Source: Clostridia bacterium (lineage in GTDB: Bacteria; Bacillota; Clostridia; TANB77; CAG-508). From it: a DNA stretch of 64,000 bases. The first letter of the stretch is position 1; each line of letters opens with the position of its first letter. The notes beneath the pieces were generated by a model. That model was not told the DNA's origin. It did no database searches and saw only the letters and a program-made list of their open reading frames with translations. Made by a program: the position numbers and the translations under genes. Shown here one piece after another: positions 30,069-56,723 of this stretch. Where the stretch lies: the NCBI GenBank assembly GCA_017528085.1, contig JAFXPH010000002.1:145071-209070 (forward strand), in the 5' to 3' direction.

Positions 30069-30096
30069 ATTATAATCTCTTTCAATCTTTTAATAA

Positions 30097-31512: not shown

Positions 31513-31518
31513 TTTTCA

Positions 31519-32691: not shown

Positions 32692-32702
32692 TAATTCCCC
32701 TC

Positions 32703-34007: not shown

Positions 34008-34029
34008 CTATTTTCCTTTCTTTTGTATT

Positions 34030-34938
34030 TCATCTACTCCCATTAAGAATGGCTAAACGTATCATTATCTTCATTCTAAGAGAAGAATATTTCAATTTTG
34101 GTGAAAAAGCTAACGATAGTTTATTAAAAAAATGAGTTTTATACTCAGACACTTTTTTTAAGAAATCCTGATTATATGGGCATATTTCATTTGAATATAA
34201 TCTTAATATTTCCTCTGCTTGTTCACTTATTGAAATACTTCTTTTTTGAAATATGTCTTTAAAAAATTTAATGACTTTTTTTACTAATCCTGTTTTTACA
34301 CCTATGACATTATTACTATGCTGACGATATTTCATATAAGCATTATCATCATATATTATCTTTCCTCCTACAGAAACACATACCTTACAAATATAAGAAT
34401 CATGCATTTCAACTACATTTGGTTTTTTGTATTTTCTAATAATTCCTAATAGACTGTTGTTAAAAAGTATAGTGCATCCTATTGCATTAACTCCACAAAT
34501 AACAGATTCAAAATTATTGGATGGTACACTCTTATATACTTTTCTTCCTAATGATTTTAAATTTTCATCTACTAACTCTGGATTAGAATAATAAATACAT
34601 GGAACACGATCATCTATTTTATTGATAGCGCTTTGGACCTTATTATCAAACCAATAATCGTCCTGATCAGAAAACAAATAATAATCAAATTCTGGTTCAA
34701 CCATAAATACTAGCTCAATAAAACTTCTAGCAGGTTTTAAATTTTTACCTTTATACCATAAAAGTTTTCCTTTTTTTTTATACTCATCTAATATATTAAT
34801 TGTATTATCTTTTGAGCCATCATCTCTCACAACAAGTGAAAGTTTAAAATTTCCTTTTTGACTTAAAATTGAATCAATTTGCTTTTTAATATATTTCTCT
34901 CCGTTATAGGTTGACATTAAAACACATACTTTTTTCAA
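34030..34938 (-). CDS. glycosyltransferase family 2
   Basis: MKKVCVLMSTYNGEKYIKKQIDSILSQ...RDDGSKDNT is the typical GT2 N-terminus with a DxD/DDGS signature. Confidence 0.7.
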   Translation of the reverse strand: MKKVCVLMSTYNGEKYIKKQIDSILSQKGNFKLSLVVRDDGSKDNTINILDEYKKKGKLLWYKGKNLKPARSFIELVFMVEPEFDYYLFSDQDDYWFDNKVQSAINKIDDRVPCIYYSNPELVDENLKSLGRKVYKSVPSNNFESVICGVNAIGCTILFNNSLLGIIRKYKKPNVVEMHDSYICKVCVSVGGKIIYDDNAYMKYRQHSNNVIGVKTGLVKKVIKFFKDIFQKRSISISEQAEEILRLYSNEICPYNQDFLKKVSEYKTHFFNKLSLAFSPKLKYSSLRMKIMIRLAILNGSR

Positions 34939-34954
34939 ATTAGCACCTCTTGTA

Positions 34955-35911
34955 TTATCTATCCAATATATTTTTATAAAATGTATTGGGTTTATTTTTT
35001 AATTCATCTGAAAATTTATGGCTTAACTTATGAAAAGGAGTCTGACTTTTGATTGCTTCCCAAGTATTTTTATCATATTCCTCAAATAATCTTAATAATA
35101 ATATATGTGGAGTAGAATTAGAAAAAGGAACAACTTTTTCCCAATCAACTTGATACGTTTCAATAGATATTTGAATAAAAAAATGTATCATAAAGTAATC
35201 AAAAGCACAATTGTTTTTCTTCCAAAAATTATGTAAAAGAGCTCTTGTTAACATGATGATTGGTTGATTACTAGAAGCAGTTATAAACCAACTAGATACA
35301 GATATAATATGTCCATCAAGACCAGGTTTCAATTTTTGAAACAAAAACAAATCTGATTCTAAGAAAAATTTTTCCTTAGGAAAATGGCTGCAAAAAACAG
35401 TCCCATCTAACCATGTTCCTCCATGAGTAGCCATTAGCTCAATTCTAATCAAATCAGCAAAATGTACTTTTGAAATAATTCCTTTTTCATATTTTTCTAA
35501 AATATAATCAGGGAAAGAAATGTAGTCTTTATAATTGTTTTCTGTTATTACAATAATTTTGTAACCCTTTAAATTGTCTTTCATTGATTTATAACATTTT
35601 TGTACTATTTCTGGAGCATTTTCCATTCCTTGAAGCCAAATAGTCCATATAATTTTTTCATGATTATGTTCTATATTACTAAAATCATTTTCTTTAACAA
35701 ATGTCTCTATAAACTTTTTATTTTTCTTTTTAATTTTTTTATACAATTTATAATTATAAATATTTCTTACTATTTCTAATGATTTTTTTGAAGTACCAAC
35801 AAGTGATGTTATTACCATCATGCGTATCAACATATGATTTCTAATAAAATCTTTAATTCTTTCTAATCCATTTACCTTTTTAAAAATACTTAAAAATTCT
35901 CCAGTATTCAT
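34955..35911 (-). CDS. capsular polysaccharide synthesis protein (Caps_synth / DXD sugar-binding glycosyltransferase-like)
   Basis: WTIWLQGMENAPEIVQKCYKSMKDNLKGYKIIVITENNYKDYISFP matches the Caps_synth family signature. Confidence 0.55.
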   Translation of the reverse strand: MNTGEFLSIFKKVNGLERIKDFIRNHMLIRMMVITSLVGTSKKSLEIVRNIYNYKLYKKIKKKNKKFIETFVKENDFSNIEHNHEKIIWTIWLQGMENAPEIVQKCYKSMKDNLKGYKIIVITENNYKDYISFPDYILEKYEKGIISKVHFADLIRIELMATHGGTWLDGTVFCSHFPKEKFFLESDLFLFQKLKPGLDGHIISVSSWFITASSNQPIIMLTRALLHNFWKKNNCAFDYFMIHFFIQISIETYQVDWEKVVPFSNSTPHILLLRLFEEYDKNTWEAIKSQTPFHKLSHKFSDELKNKPNTFYKNILDR

Positions 35912-36025
35912 ACTTAAACATCTCCGTTATCTTTCATAAATTCAGCAGTTCTTTTTATTCCATCCTCTAAGCTCAAAGTATTTAGTTTGCCATAACACTC
36001 TTCAGGTATGGTAACTAGATTGGTG
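35912..36025 (-). pseudogene. short C-terminal remnant of an NAD-dependent epimerase/dehydratase-like gene
   Basis: ISLFTNLVTIPEECYGKLNTLSLEDGIKRTAEFMKDNGDV* is open for only ~38 codons, preceded by two stops. It resembles a sugar-nucleotide epimerase C-terminus. Weak evidence. Confidence 0.25.
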
Positions 36026-36185
36026 AACAGTGAAATCTATCATTCTTTTGTTCCAAGTGATTAGTTTCTTCTCACCTGTACTTACTCATCATAGTGGTCT
36101 TTGGTGACTAGAAAAAAGTGACCATAAAAAAGTGACATTTTCCAAATTTTTTTACTGGTTTTTTTCATAAAAAAGTCAAAAAAAT

Positions 36186-36215
36186 GTGGCCTCAAAATCA
36201 AATTTAAGCCACTTT
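36186..36215 (-). terminator. hairpin terminator after the serine recombinase operon
   Basis: GTGGCCTCAAAATCAAATTTAAGCCAC is followed on the minus strand by ATTTTTTTGACTTTTTTATG. Confidence 0.5.
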
Positions 36216-36238
36216 TATTTTATATTCTAATATTTTAT

Positions 36239-38023
36239 TTACCTTTCAATTTCTACTCTTGTTCTTACTTCATTTACAACTGTTCTTATTCTTCTGCCAT
36301 TTATAGTTTCAAAACTTGGGAATTCTTCATTAATTAAGAAATCTAATACAACATTAAAATTACTTGTATCATAATCATGCAAATTATTATTGTTCACAAT
36401 AAATTCTGGAGTTATATTTTCTCTCGCACTATTTCCTTTTTTACATATAAACCTAACCATATATGGATTTTTAATTCCATTTTCATCATATCCTCCAATT
36501 ATTGCATAATCTATTAAACTTGCAAACAAATCTGCATCGAAAGATTTATACATATTTCTATTTCCTACACTTAGTATTTTATCTTTTATTGTATTTATTT
36601 TTGTTCCGTATCCTTCTTCATCTTCAATAATAGTATTTAACTTTTCTAATTTTTCATCACATTCTATTATTCTATTTTGAATATCCATTTGTTTTCTTTC
36701 AAAAACACTTTGTTCTATTTTTTCTTCAACATATAAATCTACTAATTTAGATAGTTTTTCTTTTAAATTTTTCTTCTCATTCATTAGTTTATCTTTCATA
36801 GTATAATTTACAGATGTTTGAGACGATTCTTTTATATTATTTATGAAATTTTCTATTGCAATTCCATCATTTGCAGTAAGCATATGATATGATTCCATAA
36901 AACATTTTTCTAAAATATCTTCTCTAATACTTTTACTACTTGGACAATATAGCCTTGCTTGTTTAAATGCGGCAAGACATTCCCATTTTGCATCCTTATA
37001 TGTTTTTCTTCTTCCAACTTTATCTCCACAAAATCCACACCAAAGTCTTCCACTAAAAACTGACCTTGAAGAATTGTATTTACTTGTTTCAATAAAGTTG
37101 TTTCTTCCTTTTCTAATATTTTGAGCTCGTTCAAAGTCTTCTCGTGAAATTATTGGTTCATGATGATCTTTTATGTAGTACTTATCTTCTTCTCCATTAT
37201 TTTTTGCTTTCTTATGAGTAATAACATTCGGAACATAAGTCTTTCCTTGTTCAACATCTCCAATATACTTTTCATTTTTAATTATTCCAAGTATTGTAGA
37301 ATCACTCCACTTTTTTAACCCATTTGGTGATAAAACTCCTTCTCTTTCTAGTTGTTGTGCAATAGTTTTTGAACCATATCCATTCAAGTACTTTTTAAAA
37401 ATATATCTTACTATTTCAGCTTCTTCTGGAATAATAGTCATTTTCTTCGTTTTATAATCATATTTATATCCATAGCAACTTACAAATCCAACTATTTCTC
37501 CTCTTTCTTTTTTCATTTTAAGTCCTAATTTTATATGTGAGGAAATAGTTTCAGATTCTTGTTGAGCAACAGATGATAAAACTGTTAAAAGAAGTTCACC
37601 TGCCATATCTAAAGTATTTATATTTTCTTCTTCAAATATAACAGCAACCTGTAATTCTTTTAATAATCTTACATATTTTAATGTGTCTAATGTATTTCTC
37701 GCAAACCTAGAAATAGACTTAGTTAAGATTAAATCTATTTTTCCATCAGTTGCATCTTTTATTAATCTCATAAAGTTTCCTCTTTTTTCTGCTCTTGTTC
37801 CTGATATTCCTTCATCTGCATATACTTCAACAAAAGTCCATTTTGGATTAGACATTATCTTATTTAAGTAATACTGTTGTTGAGATTTAAAGCTTGTTTG
37901 TTGATCTTCTAAATCTGTACTTACTCTGGCATATGCAGCCACTCTTAATTTTTGACTTCCTACATCTGCCGAATTTATATTTCTTAAACTATCATCATTT
38001 TTTCTTATTATTTCGACTTCCAT
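36239..38023 (-). CDS. large serine recombinase (resolvase/invertase N-domain plus recombinase and zinc-ribbon domains)
   Basis: LRVAAYARVSTDLEDQQTSFKSQQQYY has the catalytic Ser in RVSTD. 594 aa; Cys pairs in the C-terminal region. Confidence 0.8.
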   Translation of the reverse strand: MEVEIIRKNDDSLRNINSADVGSQKLRVAAYARVSTDLEDQQTSFKSQQQYYLNKIMSNPKWTFVEVYADEGISGTRAEKRGNFMRLIKDATDGKIDLILTKSISRFARNTLDTLKYVRLLKELQVAVIFEEENINTLDMAGELLLTVLSSVAQQESETISSHIKLGLKMKKERGEIVGFVSCYGYKYDYKTKKMTIIPEEAEIVRYIFKKYLNGYGSKTIAQQLEREGVLSPNGLKKWSDSTILGIIKNEKYIGDVEQGKTYVPNVITHKKAKNNGEEDKYYIKDHHEPIISREDFERAQNIRKGRNNFIETSKYNSSRSVFSGRLWCGFCGDKVGRRKTYKDAKWECLAAFKQARLYCPSSKSIREDILEKCFMESYHMLTANDGIAIENFINNIKESSQTSVNYTMKDKLMNEKKNLKEKLSKLVDLYVEEKIEQSVFERKQMDIQNRIIECDEKLEKLNTIIEDEEGYGTKINTIKDKILSVGNRNMYKSFDADLFASLIDYAIIGGYDENGIKNPYMVRFICKKGNSARENITPEFIVNNNNLHDYDTSNFNVVLDFLINEEFPSFETINGRRIRTVVNEVRTRVEIER

Positions 38024-38024
38024 A

Positions 38025-39794
38025 TTAGTTTACCTCTCTTTCTAATTTTTCATCTTTATCTTCGTACTCAAATCTAACATTAACATGGTCGATATTCTTA
38101 AGTTCTTTTTTCCCTGTTTTTTTATTAAATTCATAAGCTGTAAATTTAACAGGACACTTAAATTTTAGTAATAGTTTTAATTTGTTGTAACCTGAGTCAA
38201 TTGCATTATCTATAATTTCTTCATTTGTAGGCTTTTCTATTTTATCTTTATTATCTCTATATACAAACCTTATAAGTCTTCCGTCTTTTTTATAAGAGAT
38301 TCTTCCTCCAATAATTGTATATTTTATAAATCGTTTGAAAAAATCAAAACTAAATTCAAAAGTATCTTCTGCTTCTTTAACTTCATTTTCTATACTTTTT
38401 TCAATACTAACCTTTTGTTTTTCAGTTTCTAATAATTCTATACTTTTATTAATTTCAATTAATCTATCTTCATATTCTTTTTTTAATTGATTATAATCAT
38501 ATAAATTAATTTGCTTTTTCAAATATTTATCAGCAAATTCTGATAATTTAGTAAGAATTATCTCTCTTTCTTTTTCCAATTTTTTAAAATCATCTTGAGC
38601 TAATGTAACTGTACTTAATTTACTGAAATCAAATTTCTTTAATCTTTTCAAACATTCTATAAAAGCTATTTGAATTACATCTTCTCTCATTCTCATACTA
38701 TTTTCACAATGTGCACGAATTGATCCAAAATATTGTCCAGCTGAGCATTTATAGTACTTTTGATATTCTCTAGTTCTTCCTTCCGTCTTTCTAGGAAGTA
38801 CTCTTCCACAAAATCCACAACGAAACACCCCTACTAATTCTGTATCTATTTGTTTATATCTTTCCCTCGCCATTTCACTAGTAAGAAAAGAATTCTTCTT
38901 TCTTGCAAGCATTTCATGAACTTTATTAAAATCTTCTTCTGATATTATTGCTTTATGATGATTTTTTATCTTGTACATTGGCATTTCGCCTCTGTTTTTT
39001 ATTGGTTTTTTCCCTCTTTCTTTAACGTAATATTTTCCTTGTACCATCGTTCCAGTATATACTTCATTTTCAAGTATTCTTCTCACACCTTGAAATGAAA
39101 AAGAACTATTAAACTTTGTTTTATACCCTTTATCATTCATATGTTTAGCAATATTCGATATAATGTATCCATTTAAATACATTTCAAAAATAGTTTTTAC
39201 TATCTTTGCCTCTCTTTTATTTATTACTAACTTTTTATTCTCAATATCATGATCATATCCTAAACAAGGTGCATGTATCACTGCTACACCATTCTCATGT
39301 AACATTTTCAAACCATATTTTAATTTTTTACTAGCTTCTTCAGACTCTTTTTGAGCTACTGAAGACATTATAGTAATTAATAGTTCACTTTCTAAATTTA
39401 AGGTATAAATATTTTCTTCTTCAAAATAAACACCAATGTTTTTTTCTTTTAATAGTCTTACTGTACTTAAAAGATCAACAGAATTTCTTGCAAATCTTGA
39501 TACAGATTTTGTTAAAATCAAATCTATTTTCCCATTAATTGCATCTGCAACCATTTCATTAAATTCTTGCCTTTTAAATCTAGTTGTTCCACTTACTCCA
39601 AAATCTGAATAAACTTTAACTAAATTCCAATTATTATTCTTCTCTATTTTGTCTGTATAATATCTAATCATGTTCTCATAACTATGAAGTTGGTTTTCTT
39701 TTTCCGTACTAACTCTTACATATGCTGCAACATTTAACTTCTTTATTCTAAAATCAGTTACTTGCTCTTTTTTCTTTATCTTAAATACTTCCAT
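38025..39794 (-). CDS. large serine recombinase
   Basis: LNVAAYVRVSTEKENQLHSYENMIRYY. Start ATG (MEVFKIK) at 39794. Directly abuts the neighbouring recombinase genes. Confidence 0.8.
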   Translation of the reverse strand: MEVFKIKKKEQVTDFRIKKLNVAAYVRVSTEKENQLHSYENMIRYYTDKIEKNNNWNLVKVYSDFGVSGTTRFKRQEFNEMVADAINGKIDLILTKSVSRFARNSVDLLSTVRLLKEKNIGVYFEEENIYTLNLESELLITIMSSVAQKESEEASKKLKYGLKMLHENGVAVIHAPCLGYDHDIENKKLVINKREAKIVKTIFEMYLNGYIISNIAKHMNDKGYKTKFNSSFSFQGVRRILENEVYTGTMVQGKYYVKERGKKPIKNRGEMPMYKIKNHHKAIISEEDFNKVHEMLARKKNSFLTSEMARERYKQIDTELVGVFRCGFCGRVLPRKTEGRTREYQKYYKCSAGQYFGSIRAHCENSMRMREDVIQIAFIECLKRLKKFDFSKLSTVTLAQDDFKKLEKEREIILTKLSEFADKYLKKQINLYDYNQLKKEYEDRLIEINKSIELLETEKQKVSIEKSIENEVKEAEDTFEFSFDFFKRFIKYTIIGGRISYKKDGRLIRFVYRDNKDKIEKPTNEEIIDNAIDSGYNKLKLLLKFKCPVKFTAYEFNKKTGKKELKNIDHVNVRFEYEDKDEKLEREVN

Positions 39795-41271
39795 CTTTTC
39801 CCTCCTCAAAGCAAACATTTATAATTACTTTTTGGATTTTTAAAAAGACAACATGATTATTTATTATTTTTCTATATTCCATACAAGTTTTATACTTTAA
39901 TTGGATTTCATCTTTTGTTCCTCCATGATTTAAATAGTCATGCATTAGCAGTTTTATATCTAAAGCACCATTGTTATATTTTCCAATACAGATCTTACTA
40001 AAAACTTTATTAAACAGTTCTCTACTAAAAGATTTATTTAAAGTAACTCCGTTTAGTATTTCTTCCACTTGTTCATATTCTAATAGTTTTTCTCTATTCA
40101 AGTATTCTTTTAATAATATAAAAGATTCCGTTATTATTTTTTCTAAATCATCTCTTTTTATATTAAACCCTTTACACGGCTTGTCCTTCTTTCTATGTTT
40201 ACACCTATACACATTATATCTTGCACTTGATTCTCCTATACCTATTGTAATTTTAGAATTATTACAGCAACTACAATAAATCTTTCCTCTGATTGTATCA
40301 GCAAAAACATCTTTTCTAAATTTTTCATAATATTCTTCTCTTACTTTTTTTAGTCTTACTTGAACTTTATCAAATAATTTCTGAGATATGATCGCATCAT
40401 GAGAATTTTTAATAAAGAATTTTTCTCTTTCACCATTATTAATTACAGGTTTGTGTGTTAATGGATCAGGAGTATATGTTTTTCCAAGAATCAAATTTCC
40501 AGTATATTTTTCATTTGATAAAATACTATGAATATGACTATAGTGCCATACAGTGCTATATCTTTTTCTATTTTTAGGTACATGTCTTTCATTTAATGAA
40601 TTAACGATATTATTAATTGTTTCTCCATTTGCATATCTTTCAAATATTTCTCTTATAATAACAGCTTCATCTTCAACAATTTCATACTTTCTTTTCTCAT
40701 AATTAAAGATATATCCGTATAAAGCATCTGAAGGTGAAAACTCTCCTCTTTTCATTCTCATTCTATGTCCCATAGAAACATGGGCTGAAATGTTTTGAGA
40801 TTCTTGTTGAGCAATAGATGAAAGAATTGTAAGCAACAATTCTCCTGTCATATCTAATGTATTAATTTTTTCTTCTTCAAAATATACTGCTATATTCTTC
40901 TCTTTAAGTTTTCTTACATATTTAAGAGTATCAACTGTATTTCTTGCAAATCGAGAAATAGATTTAGTTAGTATTAAATCTATTTCTCCATCTAATGCAT
41001 TTTTTATCATATTGATAAATTGAACTCTTCTTTCAGTTCTTGTCCCTGACTTTCCTTTTTCAGCATAAATACCTGCAAAACTCCAATTAGGATTTTCTTC
41101 AATCTCTTTGTAATAATGTTTATACTGAGAAGAAAAACTAAAGTTTTGGATTTCATCTTCAGTACTAACTCTAACATATGCTGCAACTTTTAATTTCTTC
41201 TCTTTTAAACTGTTTAAAGTCACACTTCCTGTTAAATCAATTTTGTCTTTTCTAATAATTTGTAATTCCAT
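39781..41271 (-). CDS. large serine recombinase (shorter, 496 aa)
   Basis: LKVAAYVRVSTEDEIQNFSFSSQYKHY. First gene of the recombinase operon; its 3' end overlaps the next gene. Confidence 0.8.
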   Translation of the reverse strand: MELQIIRKDKIDLTGSVTLNSLKEKKLKVAAYVRVSTEDEIQNFSFSSQYKHYYKEIEENPNWSFAGIYAEKGKSGTRTERRVQFINMIKNALDGEIDLILTKSISRFARNTVDTLKYVRKLKEKNIAVYFEEEKINTLDMTGELLLTILSSIAQQESQNISAHVSMGHRMRMKRGEFSPSDALYGYIFNYEKRKYEIVEDEAVIIREIFERYANGETINNIVNSLNERHVPKNRKRYSTVWHYSHIHSILSNEKYTGNLILGKTYTPDPLTHKPVINNGEREKFFIKNSHDAIISQKLFDKVQVRLKKVREEYYEKFRKDVFADTIRGKIYCSCCNNSKITIGIGESSARYNVYRCKHRKKDKPCKGFNIKRDDLEKIITESFILLKEYLNREKLLEYEQVEEILNGVTLNKSFSRELFNKVFSKICIGKYNNGALDIKLLMHDYLNHGGTKDEIQLKYKTCMEYRKIINNHVVFLKIQKVIINVCFEEGKDGSI

Positions 41272-41330
41272 ACTATTCCTCCTATACTTATTTCTCTCGG
41301 ATTAAGTATACAGAAATAAGTATAATAGTC

Positions 41331-41531
41331 CTAATGTGCAATTTCGCTTTTTTTATCCCTTATGTAAACTCTAATAGAATCATATTCATCATCTGAAATA
41401 ATTCCAGACTTTCTTAAAACTGTTAGAGCTTCTATCTCTAATAAATATTGTATTTGATCTTTTGATATATAATTTTTATCTCTATTATCAATTAAAATTT
41501 TACTCACACTCATATCTTTAATCCTCCTCAT
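41331..41531 (-). CDS. small hypothetical protein (SHOCT-like C-terminal segment)
   Basis: 66 aa; LRKSGIISDDEYDSIRVYI resembles the SHOCT short C-terminal domain. Sits upstream of the recombinases. Confidence 0.35.
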   Translation of the reverse strand: MRRIKDMSVSKILIDNRDKNYISKDQIQYLLEIEALTVLRKSGIISDDEYDSIRVYIRDKKSEIAH

Positions 41532-42139
41532 AATTTAAATTAAATTATTAAAATAAATACTTGGTTAAATTAAAAAGCTATGATAAATATTTTTATTTGC
41601 AGACTCATTGTCTCAAATTTATAATAATCTTTCTTCTAACAACTAATAACTTTTTAAATTTTCCATAATATTTCTCTTCCTACCACAATTATTAGCTAAA
41701 AAACTTTAGTAATTATTAGAAGAAAAACTATTATGCTTTATGGCAAAAATATGACTTTTCTTTTTCCTTTTCCATATTTTTTCCTCCTCTCAAAATAAAA
41801 ACAAATGATCAAAGTTAAGCAATAGATTTAATATCTATTCTTACATACCTTCTTGCTGGTATATCTGCTGTCTCTGCAGACACGCTCTCATGGCTTGCGA
41901 CGGTTTTATCACGCTCGAACTATGACTAAGCGGTAAGTTACATATAAAAATATTCTATATGTAAAACTTAACTTTAATACTATTCACCTGTAATAGGATT
42001 CTGTAATTCACTATCTATAACCATTAAGGTAAAAACAAATTATAAAAATATAATTTAATCCCTACAATTATTAATAGGGGTTCATCTCCAAAAAATTGCA
42101 CATTTATTTGAAAAATTCTTAAATTTTTTTATTTTTTTC

Positions 42140-42170
42140 AAATAAAAAGAACTCTTACTGCATTAGCAAG
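42140..42170 (-). terminator. hairpin terminator after 42215..42484
   Basis: GAACTCTTactgcattagCAAGAGTTC followed by TTTTTATTTG on the minus strand. Confidence 0.45.
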
Positions 42171-42214
42171 AGTTCCCAGCTTTATTTCTAGTGTTTTTAT
42201 AGATTTTTAAAATC

Positions 42215-42484
42215 TTAATTATTATTTGTTTTTTTACTATTTCCTTCCTTAGCAATTCTATTTGCTATTGGTTTAGTTTTAATAACTTTAATAACATATT
42301 CTATTATTGTACTTTCAAGATCTTCATCATAATAAGACTTACCTGTAACTTCATCTTCTATTATTGAATACTTATGAATCAAGGGCTTCATAATATTAAT
42401 AATTTTTATTAAAGAACGACTACTATATTTTGAAGACTTTAATAATTTATAAAAATCAGTATTATACATTATTACCATCTCCAT
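42215..42484 (-). CDS. hypothetical protein (element)
   Basis: 89-aa ORF overlapping the stop of the sigma-like gene upstream. No motif recognised. Confidence 0.4.
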   Translation of the reverse strand: MEMVIMYNTDFYKLLKSSKYSSRSLIKIINIMKPLIHKYSIIEDEVTGKSYYDEDLESTIIEYVIKVIKTKPIANRIAKEGNSKKTNNN

Positions 42485-43058
42485 AATAAGAATATAATCT
42501 TTTTAGTCTTTCCTCAGCCCTTGACTTTAGTGCATAAACACCTCTCGGTTTTAAATTCAATTCTTTAGCGATTTCATCTATATTCATATTTTCAAAATAA
42601 AAATAAATAATGACATATCGCTGTGATAATGTAAGACTATTTAATGCAAGTTTTATAATGGATCTATTTTTAGAATTAATTAGATTTCTTATTGCAGATT
42701 CTTCTGTATTACATTCAGCTACAATAGAATCTAAATCTTCGTCTTTGACATACATATTTCTTCTAGATCTAATATTATTTTGAATACAATAATCTCTCTT
42801 TTTATGTATTATTGACTTTCTCATAAATAATATAAATCTAGCAAATACTATATCATGATCAAAGGTATCTTTTGGAATATTTTTAAATAATTCCATATCA
42901 AATAAGCTATGAATTTCTCGTAAAGGTTCTTCCAGTTTTTTCTTTTTAACCTTTTTATCTTTCACTCGATTTTGGTTTTTATTTTTCTTCTTGTTTTTTC
43001 TTTTTGTTTTAACTTGGTTTTTATTACCTTTATTTTCGATACTATCTATCGTTTCCAT
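42462..43058 (-). CDS. sigma-70 family protein (region 4 HTH; basic N-terminus)
   Basis: C-terminal LTLSQRYVIIYFYFENMNIDEIAKELNLKPRGVYALKSRAEERLKRL is a sigma-70 region 4 motif. ATG at 43058 has AAGGAG upstream. Confidence 0.55.
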   Translation of the reverse strand: METIDSIENKGNKNQVKTKRKNKKKNKNQNRVKDKKVKKKKLEEPLREIHSLFDMELFKNIPKDTFDHDIVFARFILFMRKSIIHKKRDYCIQNNIRSRRNMYVKDEDLDSIVAECNTEESAIRNLINSKNRSIIKLALNSLTLSQRYVIIYFYFENMNIDEIAKELNLKPRGVYALKSRAEERLKRLYSYYGDGNNV

Positions 43059-43269
43059 ATATACCAACTCCTTTAAATTATTAAATTAGTATTGGTTAGA
43101 TAGATAGTATTAACTCTTCTTATTTTTATCTTTGATAATCTTTAACTCCTTTTCTAAAAACTTATTTAGACGAAAGCACCCCTTTCTATATAATATTTAC
43201 ACTATCAATAAAGCTATAAATAGAATATATATCAATTTGTGATAAATGTAAATAAGATGCTTTATTTAT

Positions 43270-43896
43270 TTACCTTGCATCGAATTCTTCCTTTGGAATT
43301 TCATTATAATTCTCATCTACATATCTAACCCTTTTATTATACATATCATCTTTTATTTCAAGAATTGTAGTAGGTATTAAGCTTTCTAATTTCCCACTAA
43401 CATCTTTAATTATTAAGAAACTACCTTTTATTATTTCATCTTTAAGTACTATATTAGGATCTAAATCTTTTTTCTCTCGCTCTTTATCAGCAAATATAAA
43501 AATATCTTTTTTATATGGAATTTTTTCATAATCTCCTCCAATTGAAGATTTAATATCTGACCTATCTTTTTTTAACTTCCATATAACAGCAGGTTTATCA
43601 ACGCCTTTGTACATAGCTCTTACTTCGTTTCTCTTTGGTTTTTCAAAATTATCTTCATCTTCCGTGTTCTTTTTATAATTGTCTGGATCAAATTTTCTTA
43701 TTCGGTTTTCTCTCCATTTTTCAAACTTTATTTCGTCTTCTTCTGATAACTCGCCATCATCACCTTGCAGTTCATCTAAAAATCTCATCGATGCTATAGT
43801 TGTTTCAAGTTCAGCAAGAATACCGAGTATTGCTTTATGTTCTTCACTTTCTTCTTTTTCTTCATCAACATCATCATAATCATAATCATCTATCAT
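43270..43896 (-). CDS. acidic hypothetical protein (element)
   Basis: 208-aa ORF starting MIDDYDYDDVDEEKEESEE. No domain recognised. Confidence 0.4.
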   Translation of the reverse strand: MIDDYDYDDVDEEKEESEEHKAILGILAELETTIASMRFLDELQGDDGELSEEDEIKFEKWRENRIRKFDPDNYKKNTEDEDNFEKPKRNEVRAMYKGVDKPAVIWKLKKDRSDIKSSIGGDYEKIPYKKDIFIFADKEREKKDLDPNIVLKDEIIKGSFLIIKDVSGKLESLIPTTILEIKDDMYNKRVRYVDENYNEIPKEEFDAR

Positions 43897-44401
43897 TATT
43901 TAAGTCTCCTTCCTCAGTATCTTTTTCTTCTTTCAAATGTTTTTCATTCCATTTTTTTGCATAACTAAATATCTCATAAGAAGGAACTTGTTCATGCTTT
44001 GGCATTCTTCTGTTTATTTCTAATAAAAATTCATCCATATTATCTTGATGATAATCTTTGTAGTGTTGGTATTCTCTTCCAATTATTTCCCAGTTTTCAA
44101 TAATATAAACTCCATTATCATAATTATCTGTATCTAGCTTTTCATACCTATCTACACCTACAGATAATTTCCCTCCAAAGTAGTTTCCAATTACTTGGCA
44201 CAGTCTTGCCCATCCGTAATCATCTACTTCTGGAGATCTATATTCTTTTAAATCACAATATGCTAGAAAACCTTCAACAAAATCCATTGTTCCATCCCAA
44301 TGTAGATATACACCAACATCTTTATTCTTAGTTGTAATAACTGCTCTATCTCCCATTTTATTGTACCTTTCTTTTATTCTATCTTTCATTTTCTCTATCA
44401 T
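43886..44401 (-). CDS. hypothetical protein (element)
   Basis: 171-aa ORF, translationally coupled to its neighbours by overlapping ends. Confidence 0.4.
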   Translation of the reverse strand: MIEKMKDRIKERYNKMGDRAVITTKNKDVGVYLHWDGTMDFVEGFLAYCDLKEYRSPEVDDYGWARLCQVIGNYFGGKLSVGVDRYEKLDTDNYDNGVYIIENWEIIGREYQHYKDYHQDNMDEFLLEINRRMPKHEQVPSYEIFSYAKKWNEKHLKEEKDTEEGDLNNDR

Positions 44402-44795
44402 ATGGTTTTCTATAGGAATCTCTATATCCTATTTTCTTATGTACCTTACTGTAACTATTTTTGTTCTTTGAGCTATCCCTAAATACTATTTCAATATTTT
44501 TATCAGGCATAGAACATGTTCTTTTAAACTCTTTTAAAAGTCTTTGTATTAAATATTCTAAATCTTCAAAATTCAAAAGTTCTTCCATAATTAATTTATC
44601 AATTAAGCCTTCATCTTTATAATCTTTTGAATAATCAGGAAAAGCTTTTCCATATCGCATATTTTTATAGTAGCTATTAATATCTCTATCAAACTCACTA
44701 TCATCGTCATACTCTAATAACTTAGGTAAATCTAATTTTTCAGCAATCTTATCCAAGATATCTTTTTTCCTTTTTCGAGGATATTTGTTTTCCAT
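44379..44795 (-). CDS. hypothetical protein (element)
   Basis: 138-aa ORF starting MENKYPRKRKK; the track start is TTG, one codon earlier. Confidence 0.4.
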   Translation of the reverse strand: MENKYPRKRKKDILDKIAEKLDLPKLLEYDDDSEFDRDINSYYKNMRYGKAFPDYSKDYKDEGLIDKLIMEELLNFEDLEYLIQRLLKEFKRTCSMPDKNIEIVFRDSSKNKNSYSKVHKKIGYRDSYRKPYDRENER

Positions 44796-44804
44796 CAAAT
44801 TTCT

Positions 44805-44957
44805 TTAACTCCTTCTACATATTTATAATTTTCCCACTCTACAAAATTTCCATTTTTTGACATGTGTGATACATTTTTTCTATGTTTTTTAAAACTAGTT
44901 CTATATTCATCGCATGTATCTTCCACAAACTTTTTCATTTTTTCGTCAACTTTTATT
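44805..44957 (-). CDS. possible small protein (~50 aa) between element genes
   Basis: MIDRIKVDEKMKKFVEDTCDEYRTSFKKHRKNVSHMSKNGNFVEWENYKYVEGVKEI. Its stop overlaps the next gene start. Below the ORF-track size cutoff. Confidence 0.25.
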
Positions 44958-44976
44958 CTGTCTATCATAACTATTC

Positions 44977-45645
44977 TTAATAGTCCATTTTTACTAAGTT
45001 TTTGTTTATCTCTCTTAAAAGGAAAATTATTGCTTTAATATAATTTTCATCTCTAGGAGATAGATTAATTGTTTTCTTTTGACTTTCTGGAATATCATCA
45101 TCTGGTGTTAATGCTAAATCAAGTACAAAATATCCTTGCTTATCAGATTTATTATTTTCTTCATTTTTTACATTTGTCTTATCATTTGTATTATTAGATT
45201 CTTCTACTTCTTTTTCAGCTCTTTTAAGCTCATTATATTTTTTCATTTTCTCAAAAGCTTCTCTTCTCCTTTGTTCTCTTTTAGAAATAAAATGTCCATC
45301 TTCATCTTGATTAGAATAATCATGAGATATTTTATCTAATCTTTCTTTGTATTCTAAAAGATTATCTCTTGTGAAACTTGATATTTCTCCTGTTTCTTTA
45401 TCTTTAGCAACATAGAATAAATCTCCTCTAATAGTTTCTACTAATGTACTTCCTCTAGGTCTAATATAAACGTTTGGCATTAATTTTTCTCTATCTTTTT
45501 TGCAAATAATAAATGTGTCATCAAGATCTATTCTTTCAATCTCTCCATCAAGTTTTCTCTTAAATAGCTCTTCAGAGTTTTTTATTCGTAGGTACTCTGC
45601 ATTCTTCTTTGGTTCTTTGTAGATAACTACAATATCTTTGTCCAT
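44977..45645 (-). CDS. hypothetical protein (element)
   Basis: 222-aa ORF with a charged central region. No motif recognised. Confidence 0.4.
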   Translation of the reverse strand: MDKDIVVIYKEPKKNAEYLRIKNSEELFKRKLDGEIERIDLDDTFIICKKDREKLMPNVYIRPRGSTLVETIRGDLFYVAKDKETGEISSFTRDNLLEYKERLDKISHDYSNQDEDGHFISKREQRRREAFEKMKKYNELKRAEKEVEESNNTNDKTNVKNEENNKSDKQGYFVLDLALTPDDDIPESQKKTINLSPRDENYIKAIIFLLREINKNLVKMDY

Positions 45646-45662
45646 CTTTAACTCCTTAAATT

Positions 45663-45905
45663 TTATTCATATTTTTCAATATTCCAAAAGAAATCATCTA
45701 ATGCTTTTTCTTTTAATGTAATTGCTTCTGCCTTAGATATTTTTAAAGCTTGGCATAATTGTTTTAAAGAATAATTTTTCAAATATACCATAATAAATAC
45801 TTTTCTCTCTTCTTTTGGAAGTCTTAGTATGGCTTTAGTTAAAGTCCTACTTTCAAGGATTGTTTTCATCCTTAGAAATGAAATAAATGTTTTTTCATTT
45901 TTCAT
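45663..45905 (-). CDS. small sigma-70 region-4-like / late-transcription regulator protein
   Basis: RLPKEERKVFIMVYLKNYSLKQLCQALKISKAEAITLKEKALDDF, a region-4-type HTH in an 80-aa protein. Confidence 0.45.
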   Translation of the reverse strand: MKNEKTFISFLRMKTILESRTLTKAILRLPKEERKVFIMVYLKNYSLKQLCQALKISKAEAITLKEKALDDFFWNIEKYE

Positions 45906-46122
45906 ATAATAATCCTTTCAAATTATTTTCATGAATTCATGACTCGTTCGAACTGTGTATATGATACTACCATTTTTCTAAAATAGTTCATTTTACACAA
46001 AAAGTCACAAAAAATTCTAATTTTACACAAATTTACACTAAAATTTTGTTCGGAATTAAGGCAAAAAAATAAACCCTTAAAATCTTTAATTTTAAGAGTT
46101 TACTATTATCTCTTATATTCTT

Positions 46123-46827
46123 TTAATATGACTTTTTATTTGATATATCTGGATACCAAAATCCATCATTCTTTATTTGATTTAGTTCTTCATCTGTAAG
46201 AGATAATCTTTTTCTCATTTCATTTTTTTCTTTTTCATTAAGTTTATTTTTTGATATACATACTTTTTTAACAACTGGATCAAAAGAGTCATCTTTTTCT
46301 CCACATATTATTCCCATCTTGATATCATCACTCGCATATTTCATATTAATATAAATCATTACTTTTTCAAAATGATCATTTTCAACATGATAATTCTTCA
46401 TTAATATAAATGCTACTTCTGAATTTGATTCAATAGATCCTACTAAGAATATCTTATTAAGTTTTGGAACAGAAAAGTATACTTTCATAATTCCATTTTC
46501 TGACTTTATTGTAAGAAGCATTTCATATAACTTGTCTGTAGAATCTATGTAATACATGTATAGTTTATCTACTGAAAATGGATTATTTGATCTTTGTACT
46601 TCTTCGTTAACTTCTCTTTTATTAACTAAATCATTTAAATCAATTTCTAATGCATTACATATACTAAGTATCACTTCAAAATCTGGAATAATTGTATTTG
46701 CTTCATACTTGTATATTGTACTTGGAGTCTTGTTAATTCTTTCTGATAATTCATTTATAGACATCTTTTTAGATTTTCTTATTTTCCTAAAAGATTCTCC
46801 AAAATTATAATATTCTAAATTATACAT
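46123..46827 (-). CDS. XRE-family HTH repressor-like protein with C-terminal domain (element immunity/regulator)
   Basis: MSINELSERINKTPSTIYKYEANTIIPDFEVILSICNALEIDLNDLV is an HTH_XRE motif. ATG at 46827 has GGAGGTG upstream. Confidence 0.6.
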   Translation of the reverse strand: MYNLEYYNFGESFRKIRKSKKMSINELSERINKTPSTIYKYEANTIIPDFEVILSICNALEIDLNDLVNKREVNEEVQRSNNPFSVDKLYMYYIDSTDKLYEMLLTIKSENGIMKVYFSVPKLNKIFLVGSIESNSEVAFILMKNYHVENDHFEKVMIYINMKYASDDIKMGIICGEKDDSFDPVVKKVCISKNKLNEKEKNEMRKRLSLTDEELNQIKNDGFWYPDISNKKSY

Positions 46828-47299
46828 CCTTGCACCTCCAACACTTCCACAACTATTATAACACATTTTTCTTCAAAAATCTACCTCGGCAAGGTAATTT
46901 ATATAATTAATATAGTTTTGCATTGAAGTTCACATCAAAATATGCTATAATAGTTATAGTTAATAAGATATGACTGGCATGCTCTATAGTATGTAATCTT
47001 AATCAGTCGCTTGGGATAGCCCAAAACAAATCATTGGGCATCGCAAGTGCCTTATTATATTATAGAGATTTCATTTGCTCTCGAATATAAGATTTGTTTT
47101 TAAGCTTATTAACTAATAAAAAATTCGAGGTATTGCAGATGAAAATATTAGACGATGGTTTCCCTGGTGGAAAATTCATTGAATTTGATAATGAGCCAGT
47201 TTATTGGGGGAACTAGTTTTCCCCCTACCCCTTTGGGGATCTTATAACTTTGAAATAGCTTATTAACAAGTTACTTGCGATAGCTTGTTAATATATATA

Positions 47300-47342
47300 G
47301 CCATAGGTCTCGAATAATCATCTGCACCTATGGTTATTTTTT
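47300..47342 (+). terminator. plus-strand rho-independent terminator
   Basis: CCATAGGTctcgaataatcatctgcaCCTATGG followed by TTATTTTTT. Confidence 0.5.
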
Positions 47343-47543
47343 ACCTTAAAAAGGTAAAATTTTTGATTGTCTAATACTTAATACTACTGTTATTATATGC
47401 CGATAATAAAAAACTTCCTTATAAATATAAAATTACCTTGTTAAGGAAAAAACAACAATTTTTCTTCCTTAATAAGGTAATTTTTTAAATTTGTTTTATG
47501 TTAACAGTTTTGCTATACTAATCTCCAGAAGGAGGTTTTATAA

Positions 47544-47918
47544 ATGAAAAATTCATATGATTATACTAAAGATGAAAAGTATAAATCATATGAACAATTT
47601 GTTTATAAATCTTTGATTGATTTAGGTTTTAGAATCACTAATGTTGGTACAATGTATCTAAAAGATCTTATATTATTTGCATACTTTAATAACTACTATG
47701 AAATCAATGTTACTAAAATTGTTAAAGATTTTATGCAATATAAAAATATTAATTATATCTCATATAGGACATTTATTAATTGTATTGTATATTCCATTAA
47801 TAGTATAACTTATGATTCTTTTAAAAAAATATTTAAAATACATTATAATGAATACTATAATTCTACCAAAAACCTCATTATCCTCTTTATAAATATGCTC
47901 AATTATTATAAGAATTAA
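47544..47918 (+). CDS. hypothetical protein (Tyr/Asn-rich)
   Basis: Strong RBS GAAGGAGG 8 nt upstream of the ATG. It is the only convincing plus-strand gene in the right half of the window. Confidence 0.45.
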   Translation: MKNSYDYTKDEKYKSYEQFVYKSLIDLGFRITNVGTMYLKDLILFAYFNNYYEINVTKIVKDFMQYKNINYISYRTFINCIVYSINSITYDSFKKIFKIHYNEYYNSTKNLIILFINMLNYYKN

Positions 47919-47992
47919 ATATTATAGGATGCTAAAAAGAAACATATTTTGTACTTTAAGAATTTTAAAATCTTTAAGTGAATGCTTTCATT

Positions 47993-48817
47993 CTAATTAT
48001 GTAATGAAATAACGCCACTACCCCCAGTAGCATATATTGTATCTCCAACAATTAAATTTCCGTAATCACTTATTAGCATAATTGCTAAAGAAGCAATTTC
48101 TTCGGTAGTCGCCATTCTTTTTATTGGAGTACTGTAATCTAAATCAGAAGCATCCGAAGAATTTTGCATCTTTGTAGCTGTAGGTCCAGGAGCTAATGAA
48201 TTAACGATTATTCCATATGGAATTAAATTGTCAGCTAACCCAATGGTAAAACCTTTTATCGCCCATTTTGATATTTCGTAAGAAGACCAAGCAGGTCTTA
48301 AAGCTGATGAAGAACTAATGTTTAATATGTGACCTTTTATCTTTCTATCTATCAAATATTTAGCAAATACTTGACTGATAAAAAAAGTACCTTTTACATT
48401 GACTGCAATTGTTTTATCAAAATCTTCTTCTGTTGTACTAAAGAAATCCTTTCTTGGATTATAGCCGGCACAATTTACCAATATATCTATTTGAGAATCT
48501 TTAACAATTTTTATTGCATCATCTATACATTTTTTTATTGAATCTAGTTTAGATAAATCCAACACAACACCATTACAATTTTCATTATTAATCATATGGC
48601 AGGTTTCTTTTATTTTTTCCTCGCTAGTTCCTGTTATTATTACTTTACCACCAGTTTTTATTACTTTTTTCGCAATCGCTATTCCTATATCACCAGTTCC
48701 TCCAGTAATCAAAACTGTTTTTCCTTTTAAGATATTAATTTCTTCAATTAAATAAGGTATGGCTATTTTTTCTTTTTTATTTAGTTTCTTTATTATTTTT
48801 TTTATTATTTTCTTCAT
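47993..48817 (-). CDS. SDR-family NAD(P)-dependent oxidoreductase
   Basis: Rossmann motif VLITGGTGDIGIAIAKK. Catalytic SSSSALRPAWSSYEISKWAIKG (Ser...YxxxK). Confidence 0.7.
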   Translation of the reverse strand: MKKIIKKIIKKLNKKEKIAIPYLIEEINILKGKTVLITGGTGDIGIAIAKKVIKTGGKVIITGTSEEKIKETCHMINNENCNGVVLDLSKLDSIKKCIDDAIKIVKDSQIDILVNCAGYNPRKDFFSTTEEDFDKTIAVNVKGTFFISQVFAKYLIDRKIKGHILNISSSSALRPAWSSYEISKWAIKGFTIGLADNLIPYGIIVNSLAPGPTATKMQNSSDASDLDYSTPIKRMATTEEIASLAIMLISDYGNLIVGDTIYATGGSGVISLHN

Positions 48818-48821
48818 ATAA

Positions 48822-50297: not shown

Positions 50298-50300
50298 ATC

Positions 50301-52055: not shown

Positions 52056-52077
52056 CTTTAAAAACTCCTTTTCTATT

Positions 52078-53202: not shown

Positions 53203-53254
53203 TATTTCTCGTATAATCTATTCTAATTATACTTCTCCCTCCTTAACAATATAG

Positions 53255-54598: not shown

Positions 54599-54612
54599 TT
54601 TATTCTCCTAAC

Positions 54613-56686: not shown

Positions 56687-56723
56687 CTGCTTCTCCTTGT
56701 TTTTTTATTATATTATTTATATT

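What the first reader, a model, noticed from the sequence alone, without database searches (positions are those of the whole stretch)
35912..47500. ~11 kb integrative element with three tandem large serine recombinases splitting a surface-polysaccharide locus
Co-oriented polysaccharide genes on both sides (30097-35911 and 47993-63997) are interrupted by a module encoding three consecutive, overlapping large serine recombinases (594, 597 and 496 aa, each with the RVST catalytic motif). It also encodes two sigma-70 region-4 proteins, an XRE repressor and several acidic hypothetical proteins. A ~38-codon epimerase-like gene remnant lies exactly at the left junction. Three cognate serine recombinases in one operon is unusual, and insertion into a capsule or O-antigen locus could switch or inactivate glycan synthesis.
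Basis: partly seen in the sequence, partly recalled or inferred. Interest (0 to 1): 0.6.

Follow-up and report, generated by a model that had tools for sequence, protein, structure and literature searches.

The report
Conjugative element carrying a polysaccharide cassette
The three tandem serine recombinases are real, but they are the integration end of a roughly 45 kb conjugative element that carries its own complete surface-polysaccharide gene set and has landed in, and partly replaced, the host's polysaccharide locus in an uncultured gut Clostridia bacterium.

Summary
There are three intact, co-oriented large serine recombinases (594, 597 and 496 aa), two sigma-70 region-4 proteins, an XRE repressor, orphan genes, and a 5'-truncated gene stub at the left junction.

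The "11 kb element" reading does not hold. Nothing marks an element end near 47.5 kb. The polysaccharide genes at 47993-64000 are a second, complete and unrelated cassette, not the other half of a split locus. The scaffold that is 100% identical to the window continues past 64000 into a frameshifted sugar transferase, then CHAP, VirB4, TrbL, VirD4, a relaxase and ParB. It ends at a 3'-truncated resident sugar-transferase gene preceded by LytR.

The best reading is a ~44.6 kb ICE (window ~36004 to window-equivalent ~80613). It has a conjugation module, a polysaccharide cargo, a regulatory module and a recombinase triplet.

The two flanks do not match: a Bac_transf 5' part on one side and an epimerase-like 3' stub on the other. 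Resident DNA was therefore lost.

Recombinase triplets are already known from streptococcal ICEs. Six of six triplet-bearing relatives examined also sit in polysaccharide loci, next to 5'-truncated, co-oriented genes.

No empty site was found.

The parts
35914..36002 (-). Stub of a 5'-truncated resident gene. About 30 codons (...IPEECYGKLNTLSLEDGIKRTAEFMKDNGDV*) with no start codon. Its stop lies 2 nt before the Caps_synth ATG.
   Evidence: sequence and frames; best match is an epimerase C-terminus, E 0.07; no Pfam hit; no full-length homologue found.
36003..36011 (-). Putative crossover region at the recombinase-side junction. It reads CCATACCTG on the minus strand. The far junction reads CCATATCTG (L090 3000-3008).
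   Evidence: The far copy ends exactly where Bac_transf homology stops. This is an inference, not an experimentally defined att site.
36012..36238 (-). Non-coding right end of the element. It contains ACTGTT-N11-TTACC next to the core and a terminator-like hairpin plus T-run (about 36178-36212) just after the SR1 stop.
   Evidence: hairpin about -10.7 kcal/mol, z-score -1.5. The consensus terminator scan did not list it.
36239..38023 (-). SR1, the external large serine recombinase (594 aa).
   Evidence: Pfam, 3 domains. RVST and SRFARN motifs. N-terminal domain matches 3g13 'putative conjugative transposon recombinase', E 6e-61; 53-56% identical to the external recombinases of related triplets.
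38025..39818 (-). SR2, the middle large serine recombinase (597 aa by ORF; 589 aa as called on public contigs).
39781..41271 (-). SR3, the internal large serine recombinase (496 aa). It overlaps the SR2 start.
41331..41531 (-). Small SHOCT-like ORF (66 aa; 60 aa as called on public contigs). It is conserved immediately upstream of every related recombinase module. Candidate accessory or directionality factor (inferred).
   Evidence: weak SHOCT hit; alignment with the 56-57 aa ORFs of L073, L079, L082 and L086; 40% identity to the L082 ORF.
42215..43067 (-). Sigma-70 region-4 protein (201 aa, 42462-43067) plus an 89 aa ORF. A sigma-r4 protein of 140-158 aa is also conserved upstream of related triplets.
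43270..44968 (-). Four orphan ORFs (208, 171, 139 and 57 aa; acidic). None hits any family in Pfam, PHROGs, NCBIfam or PADLOC.
44977..45905 (-). DUF3846-like protein (222 aa) and a small sigma-r4 protein (80 aa). A second, larger DUF3846 protein sits in the element's conjugation-proximal part (L090 5369-6721).
46123..46866 (-). XRE/HTH_19 repressor-like protein (247 aa) with an unassigned C-terminal domain.
46867..47992 (+). Internal divergent region. It holds a 25-aa ORF (47140-47216), terminator-like hairpins, and ORF124 (47544-47918, strong RBS, no family). It is not an element boundary.
   Evidence: No family hits.
47993..64000 (-). Cargo polysaccharide cassette, which continues beyond the window. 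Gene order: SDR, Wzx, TPP enzyme, pyruvyl transferase, Wzy, GT2, GT1, GT4, PGM/PMM, ManC-ManA, ManC, acyltransferase. Outside the window it continues with a frameshifted Bac_transf (BT2).
29460..35911 (-). Resident downstream cassette, now displaced. Gene order: Caps_synth, GT2, Wzy, pyruvyl transferase, Wzx, HAD. It is separated by the element from LytR and Bac_transf BT1, and no promoter-like site lies in the 330 bp upstream.
29092..29478 (-). Second 5'-truncated gene: a galE/GDP_Man_Dehyd-type C-terminal part of 128 codons, abutting the HAD stop. It marks another cassette scar at the end of the resident cassette.
   Evidence: profile positions 209-331 of 332.

Best explanation
The region is the right-hand (regulation plus integration) end of a ~44.6 kb integrative and conjugative element (ICE) in an uncultured Clostridia genome.

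Gene order, in the direction of transcription (minus strand):
- Resident LytR.
- Resident Bac_transf BT1, cut after GPRPYL.
- The ICE:
  - ParB, HTH_36, DUF3846, DUF3848, NikA-like, MobA/VirD2-type relaxase and DUF3801.
  - VirD4, pilin-like, TrbL_2, PrgI, VirB4 and CHAP.
  - A complete Wzx/Wzy polysaccharide cassette: BT2, acyltransferase, mannose-nucleotide genes, three GTs, Wzy, pyruvyl transferase, TPP enzyme, Wzx and SDR.
  - ORF124, XRE, sigma-r4, orphan genes, sigma-r4 and the small SHOCT-like ORF.
  - SR3, SR2 and SR1.
- The stub of a resident gene.
- The resident Caps_synth-GT2-Wzy-PvT-Wzx-HAD cassette.

Shown: gene content and order, both junctions, and the truncation of both flanking genes.

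Inferred:
- The three serine recombinases, probably as a hetero-oligomer and helped by the conserved small ORF, excise the element as a circle and integrate it at a CT(G) core inside CCATAYCTG.
- The relaxase and T4SS transfer the element.
- XRE and the sigma-r4 proteins control excision, as in Tn916/Tn5397-type elements.
- Insertion cuts the resident initiating transferase and separates the resident cassette from its upstream genes. The element therefore probably swaps or abolishes the surface glycan. ICE-borne BT2 is itself frameshifted, so current function is uncertain.
- The two flanks are halves of different genes, so at least ~1.2 kb of resident DNA was lost. The loss could have come from recombination of the recombinase-side end with a downstream secondary site. 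It could also have come from a second integration followed by recombination between the two copies.
For: - The window is 100% identical to ENA scaffold XIEF21-1_SAMN15830026_METAG-scaffold_3 over every overlapping locus, so L087 and L090 are its direct continuation.
- A conjugation module lies upstream of the cargo cassette. A related backbone with the same core synteny, from NikA-like and relaxase through VirD4, TrbL_2, PrgI and VirB4 to CHAP, occurs in other gut contigs.
- BT1 covers only Bac_transf profile positions 1-112 of 179. It stops after GPRPYL, whereas homologues continue for about 75 aa.
- No other recombinase lies in the conjugation part, and no transfer gene lies in the 11 kb part, so the two halves complement each other.
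- The two cassettes are each complete and are unrelated in sequence.
- Upstream LytR plus BT1 and the downstream GT/Wzy/Wzx genes together make one coherent resident locus.
- An imperfect 9-bp repeat, CCATAYCTG, lies at both junctions. At the far junction it ends exactly where BT1 homology ends.
- No junction signature lies at 46.9-48 kb.
- The triplet-at-the-extremity arrangement, co-oriented with a disrupted gene, matches published ICE modules.
- The SR1 catalytic domain is closest to a conjugative-transposon recombinase structure.
Against: - No empty site and no second insertion site of this element was found. All 12-13 contigs show the same context, so mobility and exact ends are inferred.
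- The flanks are not two halves of one gene, so this is not a textbook insertion.
- The 16/17 inverted repeat between the two ends is at chance level when the whole element is searched.
- GC content does not set the element apart: 0.26 against 0.25-0.28.
- BT2 carries a frameshift in all assemblies. The cargo may therefore be non-functional and the element may be decaying.
- Whether the related triplet modules also belong to large ICEs could not be seen, because flanks are limited to 10 kb.
Confidence: 0.7

Rival explanations
1. Composite of two elements. Here the 11 kb XRE-to-SR1 stretch is the remains of a separate small integrative (mobilizable) element, or of a second ICE, that integrated in the epimerase-like gene. 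A distinct ICE integrated in BT1. Recombination between the two then fused them and deleted what lay between.
For: - The flanks are halves of different genes.
- There are two DUF3846 genes and two sigma-r4 genes.
- Relatives look like small 10-12 kb units with a full-length gene upstream and a truncated homologue right after the recombinase end. L079 has ugd copies 77% identical. L082 shows the same pattern. L073 has copies of a 517-aa gene 91% identical.
- Tandem accretion of ICEs and IMEs is known in Firmicutes (PMC4701971).
Against: - No internal att-like copy or junction scar lies at 46.9-48 kb or anywhere inside the element.
- No gene resembling the stub lies anywhere in the element.
- The present structure would still move, if at all, as one 44.6 kb unit using the triplet.
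Confidence: 0.15
2. The polysaccharide cassette at 47993-64000+ is chromosomal. Two unrelated insertions flank it: an integrase-less remnant of a conjugative element inside the Bac_transf region, and a small recombinase-bearing element downstream.
For: - The cassette has the same GC content as its surroundings.
- BT2 is a full-length gene with its own start right after CHAP.
- The relatives seen have only polysaccharide genes in the 10 kb upstream.
Against: - It needs two tandem complete cassettes plus two insertions, each with an adjacent deletion.
- The conjugation remnant would lack any integrase, and the recombinase element would lack its second end and the other half of its target.
- BT1 is cut precisely where element DNA starts.
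Confidence: 0.1
3. The recombinase triplet is a domesticated switch. It deletes or rearranges polysaccharide cassettes (programmed or phase-variable excision) and no longer serves horizontal transfer.
For: - Every triplet relative examined sits in a polysaccharide locus next to a 5'-truncated co-oriented gene.
- Identical elements have sharp ends joined to different downstream sequences.
- L076 equals L073 minus 7,255 bp directly adjacent to the element end.
Against: - Intact relaxase, VirD4 and VirB4 genes lie in the same unit.
- No inverted or alternative configurations are seen among the 12-13 contigs of this lineage.
- Deletions are irreversible, so they cannot act as a switch.
Confidence: 0.05

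Closest known systems
Streptococcal ICEs that integrate with a triplet of serine integrases (Ambroset et al. 2016, PMC4701971; e.g. ICE_Sco1050_mutT, ICE_SanMAS624_hsdM)
   Same: - Three adjacent, co-oriented large serine recombinase genes (PF00239 + PF07508 ± PF13408) at one extremity of a conjugative element.
- The same orientation as a disrupted target gene.
- Very short repeats at the ends.
- Position-specific similarity of the external recombinase.
   Different: - The host is an uncultured gut or rumen Clostridia, not Streptococcus.
- The target is a polysaccharide gene (Bac_transf and an epimerase-like gene), not mutT, traG or hsdM.
- The cargo is a full polysaccharide cassette.
- The flanks do not match.
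- Direct orthology to the streptococcal E/M/I clades was not tested. The only streptococcal relatives retrieved were single recombinases at about 44% identity.
Tn5397 (TndX), Tn4451 (TnpX) and Clostridioides difficile CTn elements
   Same: - Firmicutes conjugative or mobilizable transposons moved by a large serine recombinase placed at the element end.
- The recombinase is preceded by an XRE plus sigma-r4-like regulatory module.
- The SR1 catalytic domain matches the PDB 3g13 'conjugative transposon recombinase' at E 6e-61 and TnpX weakly.
   Different: - Those elements use one recombinase, whereas this one has three plus a conserved small ORF.
- The cargo and the conjugation backbone are different.
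SCCmec / Ccr cassette chromosome recombinases
   Same: - More than one large serine recombinase encoded together.
- Cassettes accumulate at one chromosomal site.
   Different: - NCBIfam CcrA/B/C scores are 62-140 bits against cut-offs of 700-900, so these are not Ccr proteins.
- The target is not rlmH.
- This element has its own conjugation machinery.
Bacteroidetes ICEs carrying capsular polysaccharide loci (Jiang et al. 2019, PMC6907783)
   Same: An ICE whose cargo is a multi-gene capsular polysaccharide locus, in gut bacteria.
   Different: - Those are tyrosine-integrase elements of Bacteroidetes.
- That survey found capsule loci enriched on MGEs only in Bacteroidetes, not Firmicutes.
- Here the element sits inside the resident polysaccharide locus.

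Membership tests
Large serine recombinase (integrase/transposase type) | N-terminal resolvase catalytic domain with the nucleophilic Ser and the SRxxR motif, followed by the Recombinase domain and a zinc ribbon | tested here: met
   all three domains are above the Pfam cut-offs in SR1, SR2 and SR3. RVST at residues 33-35 and S(I/V)SRFARN at 103-105 in all three.
Integrative and conjugative element (ICE) | Conjugation module in the same unit: relaxase, coupling protein, VirB4-type ATPase and T4SS membrane components | tested here: met
   Relaxase PF03432 (E 2.5e-38), VirD4/TraG-D_C, P-loop_TraG (VirB4-like), TrbL_2, PrgI and CHAP. They lie on the scaffold continuous with the window, outside the window itself.
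Integrative and conjugative element (ICE) | Two defined ends, each abutting a disrupted target or att site | tested here: inconclusive
   Both ends abut truncated genes and share CCATAYCTG. However, the two truncated genes are different genes, and the subterminal inverted repeat is at chance level.
Integrative and conjugative element (ICE) | Presence/absence polymorphism (an empty site) or a second insertion site | tested here: inconclusive
   All 12-13 contigs with the exact flank proteins or SR1 carry the same arrangement. No close relatives were found in JGI metagenomes. No full-length version of the stub was found. The element was not found in any GTDB species-representative genome, but that collection could not be rescanned for the flanks.
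Integrative and conjugative element (ICE) | Excision to a circle and conjugative transfer | not testable with these tools
   This needs reads or PCR across the predicted joint, and mating assays. The predicted joint was absent from IMG/VR, which is uninformative.
Triplet-of-serine-integrases integration module (Ambroset 2016) | Three adjacent co-oriented serine integrase genes at the element extremity, in the same orientation as the disrupted target gene | tested here: met
   compared with the description.
Triplet-of-serine-integrases integration module (Ambroset 2016) | Position-specific clades (external, middle, internal), implying one ancestral triplet | tested here: inconclusive
   external recombinases of five triplets are 53-68% identical to each other, against 31-52% for other pairs. 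The middle and internal positions do not form clear groups by identity. No tree was built and no streptococcal triplet sequences were available.
SCC-type Ccr recombinases | Score above the NCBIfam equivalog cut-off for CcrA, CcrB or CcrC | tested here: not met
   the best score is 139.8 bits against a cut-off of 900.
   no epimerase 5' part in any frame of 46840-48000; no copy of either end sequence there; no relaxase, replication or transfer gene in 36-47.5 kb.

The most novel reading that the evidence does not exclude
The recombinase-triplet modules of gut and rumen Clostridia (sigma-r4 protein, 56-66 aa SHOCT-like ORF, and internal, middle and external recombinases) would be a dedicated vehicle for exchanging surface-polysaccharide cassettes.

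The proposed cycle:
- The modules home to conserved coding motifs of polysaccharide genes. Examples are GPRPYL in Bac_transf, the GGxCLPKD region of ugd, and GGVE in GT4.
- They arrive together with a new cassette.
- Their recombinase-side end then recombines with secondary sites downstream. Resident genes are deleted and the serotype is replaced in a directed way rather than merely interrupted.

Having several recombinases would be what allows several site classes.
Probability: 0.3. Interest if true: 0.75.

Novelty: new member of a known kind. Interest (0 to 1): 0.5.

Why it matters
Surface polysaccharides decide phage sensitivity, immune recognition and niche competition in gut bacteria. How Clostridia diversify them is poorly known.

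An ICE that carries a whole Wzx/Wzy cassette and inserts into the resident locus would be a one-step route to serotype change in Firmicutes. One survey reported capsule loci enriched on mobile elements only in Bacteroidetes (PMC6907783).

The family-level pattern is a concrete, testable lead on two questions: what recombinase triplets are for, and whether large serine recombinases can drive targeted replacement rather than simple insertion. That pattern consists of triplets always found inside polysaccharide loci, with sharp ends joined to many different 5'-truncated genes.

The multi-site behaviour is also of interest for recombinase tool development.

Tried and rejected
1. **Empty site.** Searches came back either with the element in the same context or with nothing close.
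   - Exact-protein look-ups of both flank genes, the window's last gene and SR1 all gave the same context.
   - JGI metagenome scans with Caps_synth found nothing. Scans with BT1 found nothing above 57% identity.
   - A 40-aa query built on the stub found no homologue.
2. **Small-element model for the window.**
   - I looked for the stub's 5' half and for ORFs at 46.8-48 kb.
   - I looked for internal copies of either end.
   - I looked for a stub-like gene anywhere in the element.
   - None was found.
3. **Terminal inverted repeats.** A 16/17 match between the ends is no better than chance against the whole element. I do not rely on it.
4. **BT2 frameshift as an old recombination joint.** Rejected. 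The BT2 sequence at the homologous position is CCGTATTTG, so its core differs, and the extra base lies about 15 nt upstream of the crossover.
5. **RNA genes or tRNA as target.** No Rfam or tRNA hit in the window.
6. **Ccr/SCC membership.** Fails the score cut-offs.
7. **Phage identity.** PHROGs hits are only to generic sigma/HTH families. IMG/VR holds only streptococcal-type single recombinases at 44-45% identity, and the predicted circular joint is absent from it.
8. **Plasmid database.** Only distant single recombinases were found, at 46% identity or less.

Full report
**What is in the window**

The window is AT-rich (about 26% GC) and almost every gene is on the minus strand. Three ORFs at 36239-38023, 38025-39818 and 39781-41271 each carry the Resolvase, Recombinase and Zn_ribbon_recom domains above the Pfam cut-offs. 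Each has the catalytic RVST and SRFARN motifs.

Upstream of them, in transcription order, lie these genes:
- an XRE/HTH_19 protein (46123-46866);
- an 80-aa sigma-70 region-4 protein;
- a weak DUF3846 protein;
- four ORFs with no hit in any family library;
- a 201-aa sigma-r4 protein;
- an 89-aa ORF;
- a 66-aa ORF with a weak SHOCT match.

Between the SR1 stop and the Caps_synth gene (34955-35911) lies a reading frame without a start codon. It ends ...IPEECYGKLNTLSLEDGIKRTAEFMKDNGDV* two bases before the Caps_synth ATG. The 'epimerase-like' label, however, rests only on a weak match to an epimerase C-terminus (E 0.07), with no Pfam hit.

**Why the 11 kb unit fails**

- The 11 kb contains no relaxase, replication or transfer gene.
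- The region 46.8-48 kb holds no 5' half of the stub in any frame.
- That region also holds no copy of either end sequence.
- The genes on the two sides are not halves of one locus. The left side has Caps_synth, GT2, Wzy, pyruvyl transferase, Wzx and HAD. The right side has its own SDR, Wzx, TPP enzyme, pyruvyl transferase, Wzy, GT2, GT1, GT4, PGM/PMM, two mannose-nucleotide genes and an acyltransferase.
- The functional pairs are unrelated in sequence. Only the two Wzx proteins align, at 23% identity.

**What lies beyond the window**

The window is 100% identical to ENA scaffold XIEF21-1_SAMN15830026_METAG-scaffold_3 across all overlapping fetched loci. It is 99.98% identical to NCBI MAG GCA_017475375.1, a Clostridia bacterium.

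Walking right from 64000 on that scaffold gives the following:
- A Bac_transf gene, BT2, that is full length but has a 1-nt frameshift in every assembly.
- Then CHAP, a VirB4-like ATPase, PrgI, LPD28, TrbL_2, a pilin-like protein, VirD4, DUF3801, a MobA/VirD2-type relaxase, a NikA-like protein, DUF3848, a 450-aa DUF3846 protein, HTH_36 and ParB.
- Then about 400 bp of non-coding DNA.
- Then a resident Bac_transf gene, BT1. It stops after GDMSIIGPRPYL and covers profile positions 1-112 of 179. Homologues continue for about 75 aa.
- BT1 is preceded by a LytR_cpsA_psr gene.

A related conjugation backbone, with the same core synteny from NikA-like and relaxase to CHAP, occurs on other gut contigs.

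The most economical reading is one ICE of about 44.6 kb. It would run from window ~36004 to window-equivalent ~80613 (L090 ~3009). Its order is conjugation module, polysaccharide cargo, regulatory module, recombinase triplet. It would be inserted in a resident locus made of LytR-BT1 upstream and the GT/Wzy/Wzx genes downstream.

**Junctions**

The far junction reads ...GGACCACGT CCATATCTG | TGGGTAATGACC.... The recombinase-side junction reads ...CTAGTTA CCATACCTG | AAGAGTG... on the minus strand (36011-36003).

The shared CCATAYCTG ends exactly where BT1 homology ends, which suggests a crossover in CT(G). That fits the 2-8 bp repeats reported for triplet ICEs. The motifs ACTGTT-N11-TTACC and GGTAA-N10-AACAGT flank the core in the predicted circular joint. 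This is my reading of the sequences.

A 16/17 subterminal inverted repeat is not significant against the whole element.

A hairpin plus T-run follows the SR1 stop. No sigma-70-like promoter lies between the element end and Caps_synth. The displaced resident cassette is therefore probably not transcribed from nearby; this is an inference.

**The anomaly**

The flanks are halves of different genes. BT1's 3' part and the stub gene's 5' part occur nowhere in the window. Resident DNA, at least about 1.2 kb, was therefore lost. I cannot tell which route caused this:
- recombination of the recombinase-side end with a secondary site;
- a second integration followed by recombination between copies;
- fusion of two elements.

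**Relatives**

SR1 has thousands of homologues. The closest outside its own 99%-identical cluster are only 57% identical. I examined six triplet-bearing relatives.

| Relative | Identity to SR1 |
|---|---|
| P0009 | 56% |
| P0004 | 56% |
| P0016 | 54% |
| P0010 | 54% |
| P0049 | 50% |
| Tissierella | triplet seen, context not examined |

In all five contexts examined, three features recur:
- The triplet is preceded by a homologous 56-63 aa ORF and a sigma-r4 protein.
- It sits inside a polysaccharide locus.
- It is followed, after a sharp common end, by a 5'-truncated, co-oriented gene. These are ugd, Epimerase_2, pyruvyl transferase, FrhB-like, GT4 or Wzx-like genes.

Elements with an identical terminal recombinase are joined to five (P0009) or three (P0049) different downstream sequences. 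Two P0049 junctions fall at the homologous GGVE motif of two different glycosyltransferase genes.

L076 equals L073 minus 7,255 bp directly adjacent to the element end. In L073, L079 and L082 a full-length homologue of the truncated gene lies 8-11 kb upstream.

The far ends of these elements could not be reached, so I cannot say whether they are ICEs or small units. A more distant single-recombinase relative (P0068, 47%) is not in a polysaccharide locus.

External recombinases are 53-68% identical to each other, against 31-52% for other pairs.

**Comparison with known systems**

- Triplets of serine integrases at an ICE extremity, co-oriented with a disrupted gene, are described for Streptococcus (targets mutT, traG and hsdM).
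- The SR1 catalytic domain is closest to a conjugative-transposon recombinase structure, 3g13 (E 6e-61). SPbeta SprA is far more distant.
- The proteins are not Ccr recombinases.
- ICE-borne capsule loci are documented in Bacteroidetes. That survey reported them as not enriched in Firmicutes MGEs.

This is therefore a new member of a known kind. Its host, target and cargo are new, and it carries an unexplained replacement signature.

**Limits**

- No empty site, second insertion site or circular form was found.
- Mobility, the exact ends, the roles of the three recombinases and the small ORF, and the glycan phenotype are all inferred.

Noticed in passing
window 29092-29478 (minus strand): A second 5'-truncated gene: the C-terminal 128 codons of a galE/GDP-mannose-dehydratase-type enzyme (profile positions 209-331 of 332). 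It abuts the HAD gene's stop. It looks like another cassette-exchange scar at the end of the resident cassette.
   Followed up: partly
L090 19330-19460 (scaffold continuation, window-equivalent ~64.2 kb): The element-borne Bac_transf BT2 has a 1-nt frameshift (ATAGTG-C-GGACCG) at the GDMSIV-GPRP codons. This is five codons upstream of the position where resident BT1 is cut. The frameshift is present in all independent assemblies (L087-L091). It could be coincidence, self-immunity of a target-like site, or decay; this is unresolved.
   Followed up: partly
window 26188-28973: An AAA_15/AAA_21 ATPase (PADLOC AriA/GajA-like, E 9e-23) lies next to a non-specific endonuclease (Endonuclea_NS_2), directly after the resident cassette. 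Defence-type genes also follow the truncated genes in related loci: OLD-like in L073, and DUF1016, SMEK and Mrr-nSTAND3 in L079.
   Followed up: partly
window 8358-15512: Three tandem ORFs of 782, 803 and 786 aa have no Pfam hit at all. Nearby are a HerA-like ATPase (5415-6983), CofD (16105-17058), a second Endonuclea_NS_2 (18882-20054), two radical-SAM proteins, a peptidase A24 and a MORN-repeat protein.
   Followed up: no
window 47140-47216 and 47544-47918 (plus strand): These are the only plus-strand genes in the area. One is a 25-aa ORF followed by terminator-like hairpins. The other is a 124-aa ORF with a strong GGAGG ribosome-binding site and no hit in Pfam, PHROGs, NCBIfam or PADLOC. 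Both diverge from the XRE gene.
   Followed up: partly
L073 4423-11794: One relative carries four serine recombinases. A solo one (595 aa) with its own small SHOCT-like ORF and a PemK toxin gene lies directly upstream of a small ORF plus triplet. Module size therefore varies (1, 3 or 4 recombinases).
   Followed up: no
L073 12076-13519 vs 460-1905; L079 2352-2633 vs 11964-12245: In three relatives, the 5'-truncated gene after the recombinase end has a full-length homologue 8-11 kb upstream (91% and 77% nt identity in two of them). This fits small elements that carry a replacement part of their target gene. It also fits cargo and resident cassettes being related.
   Followed up: partly
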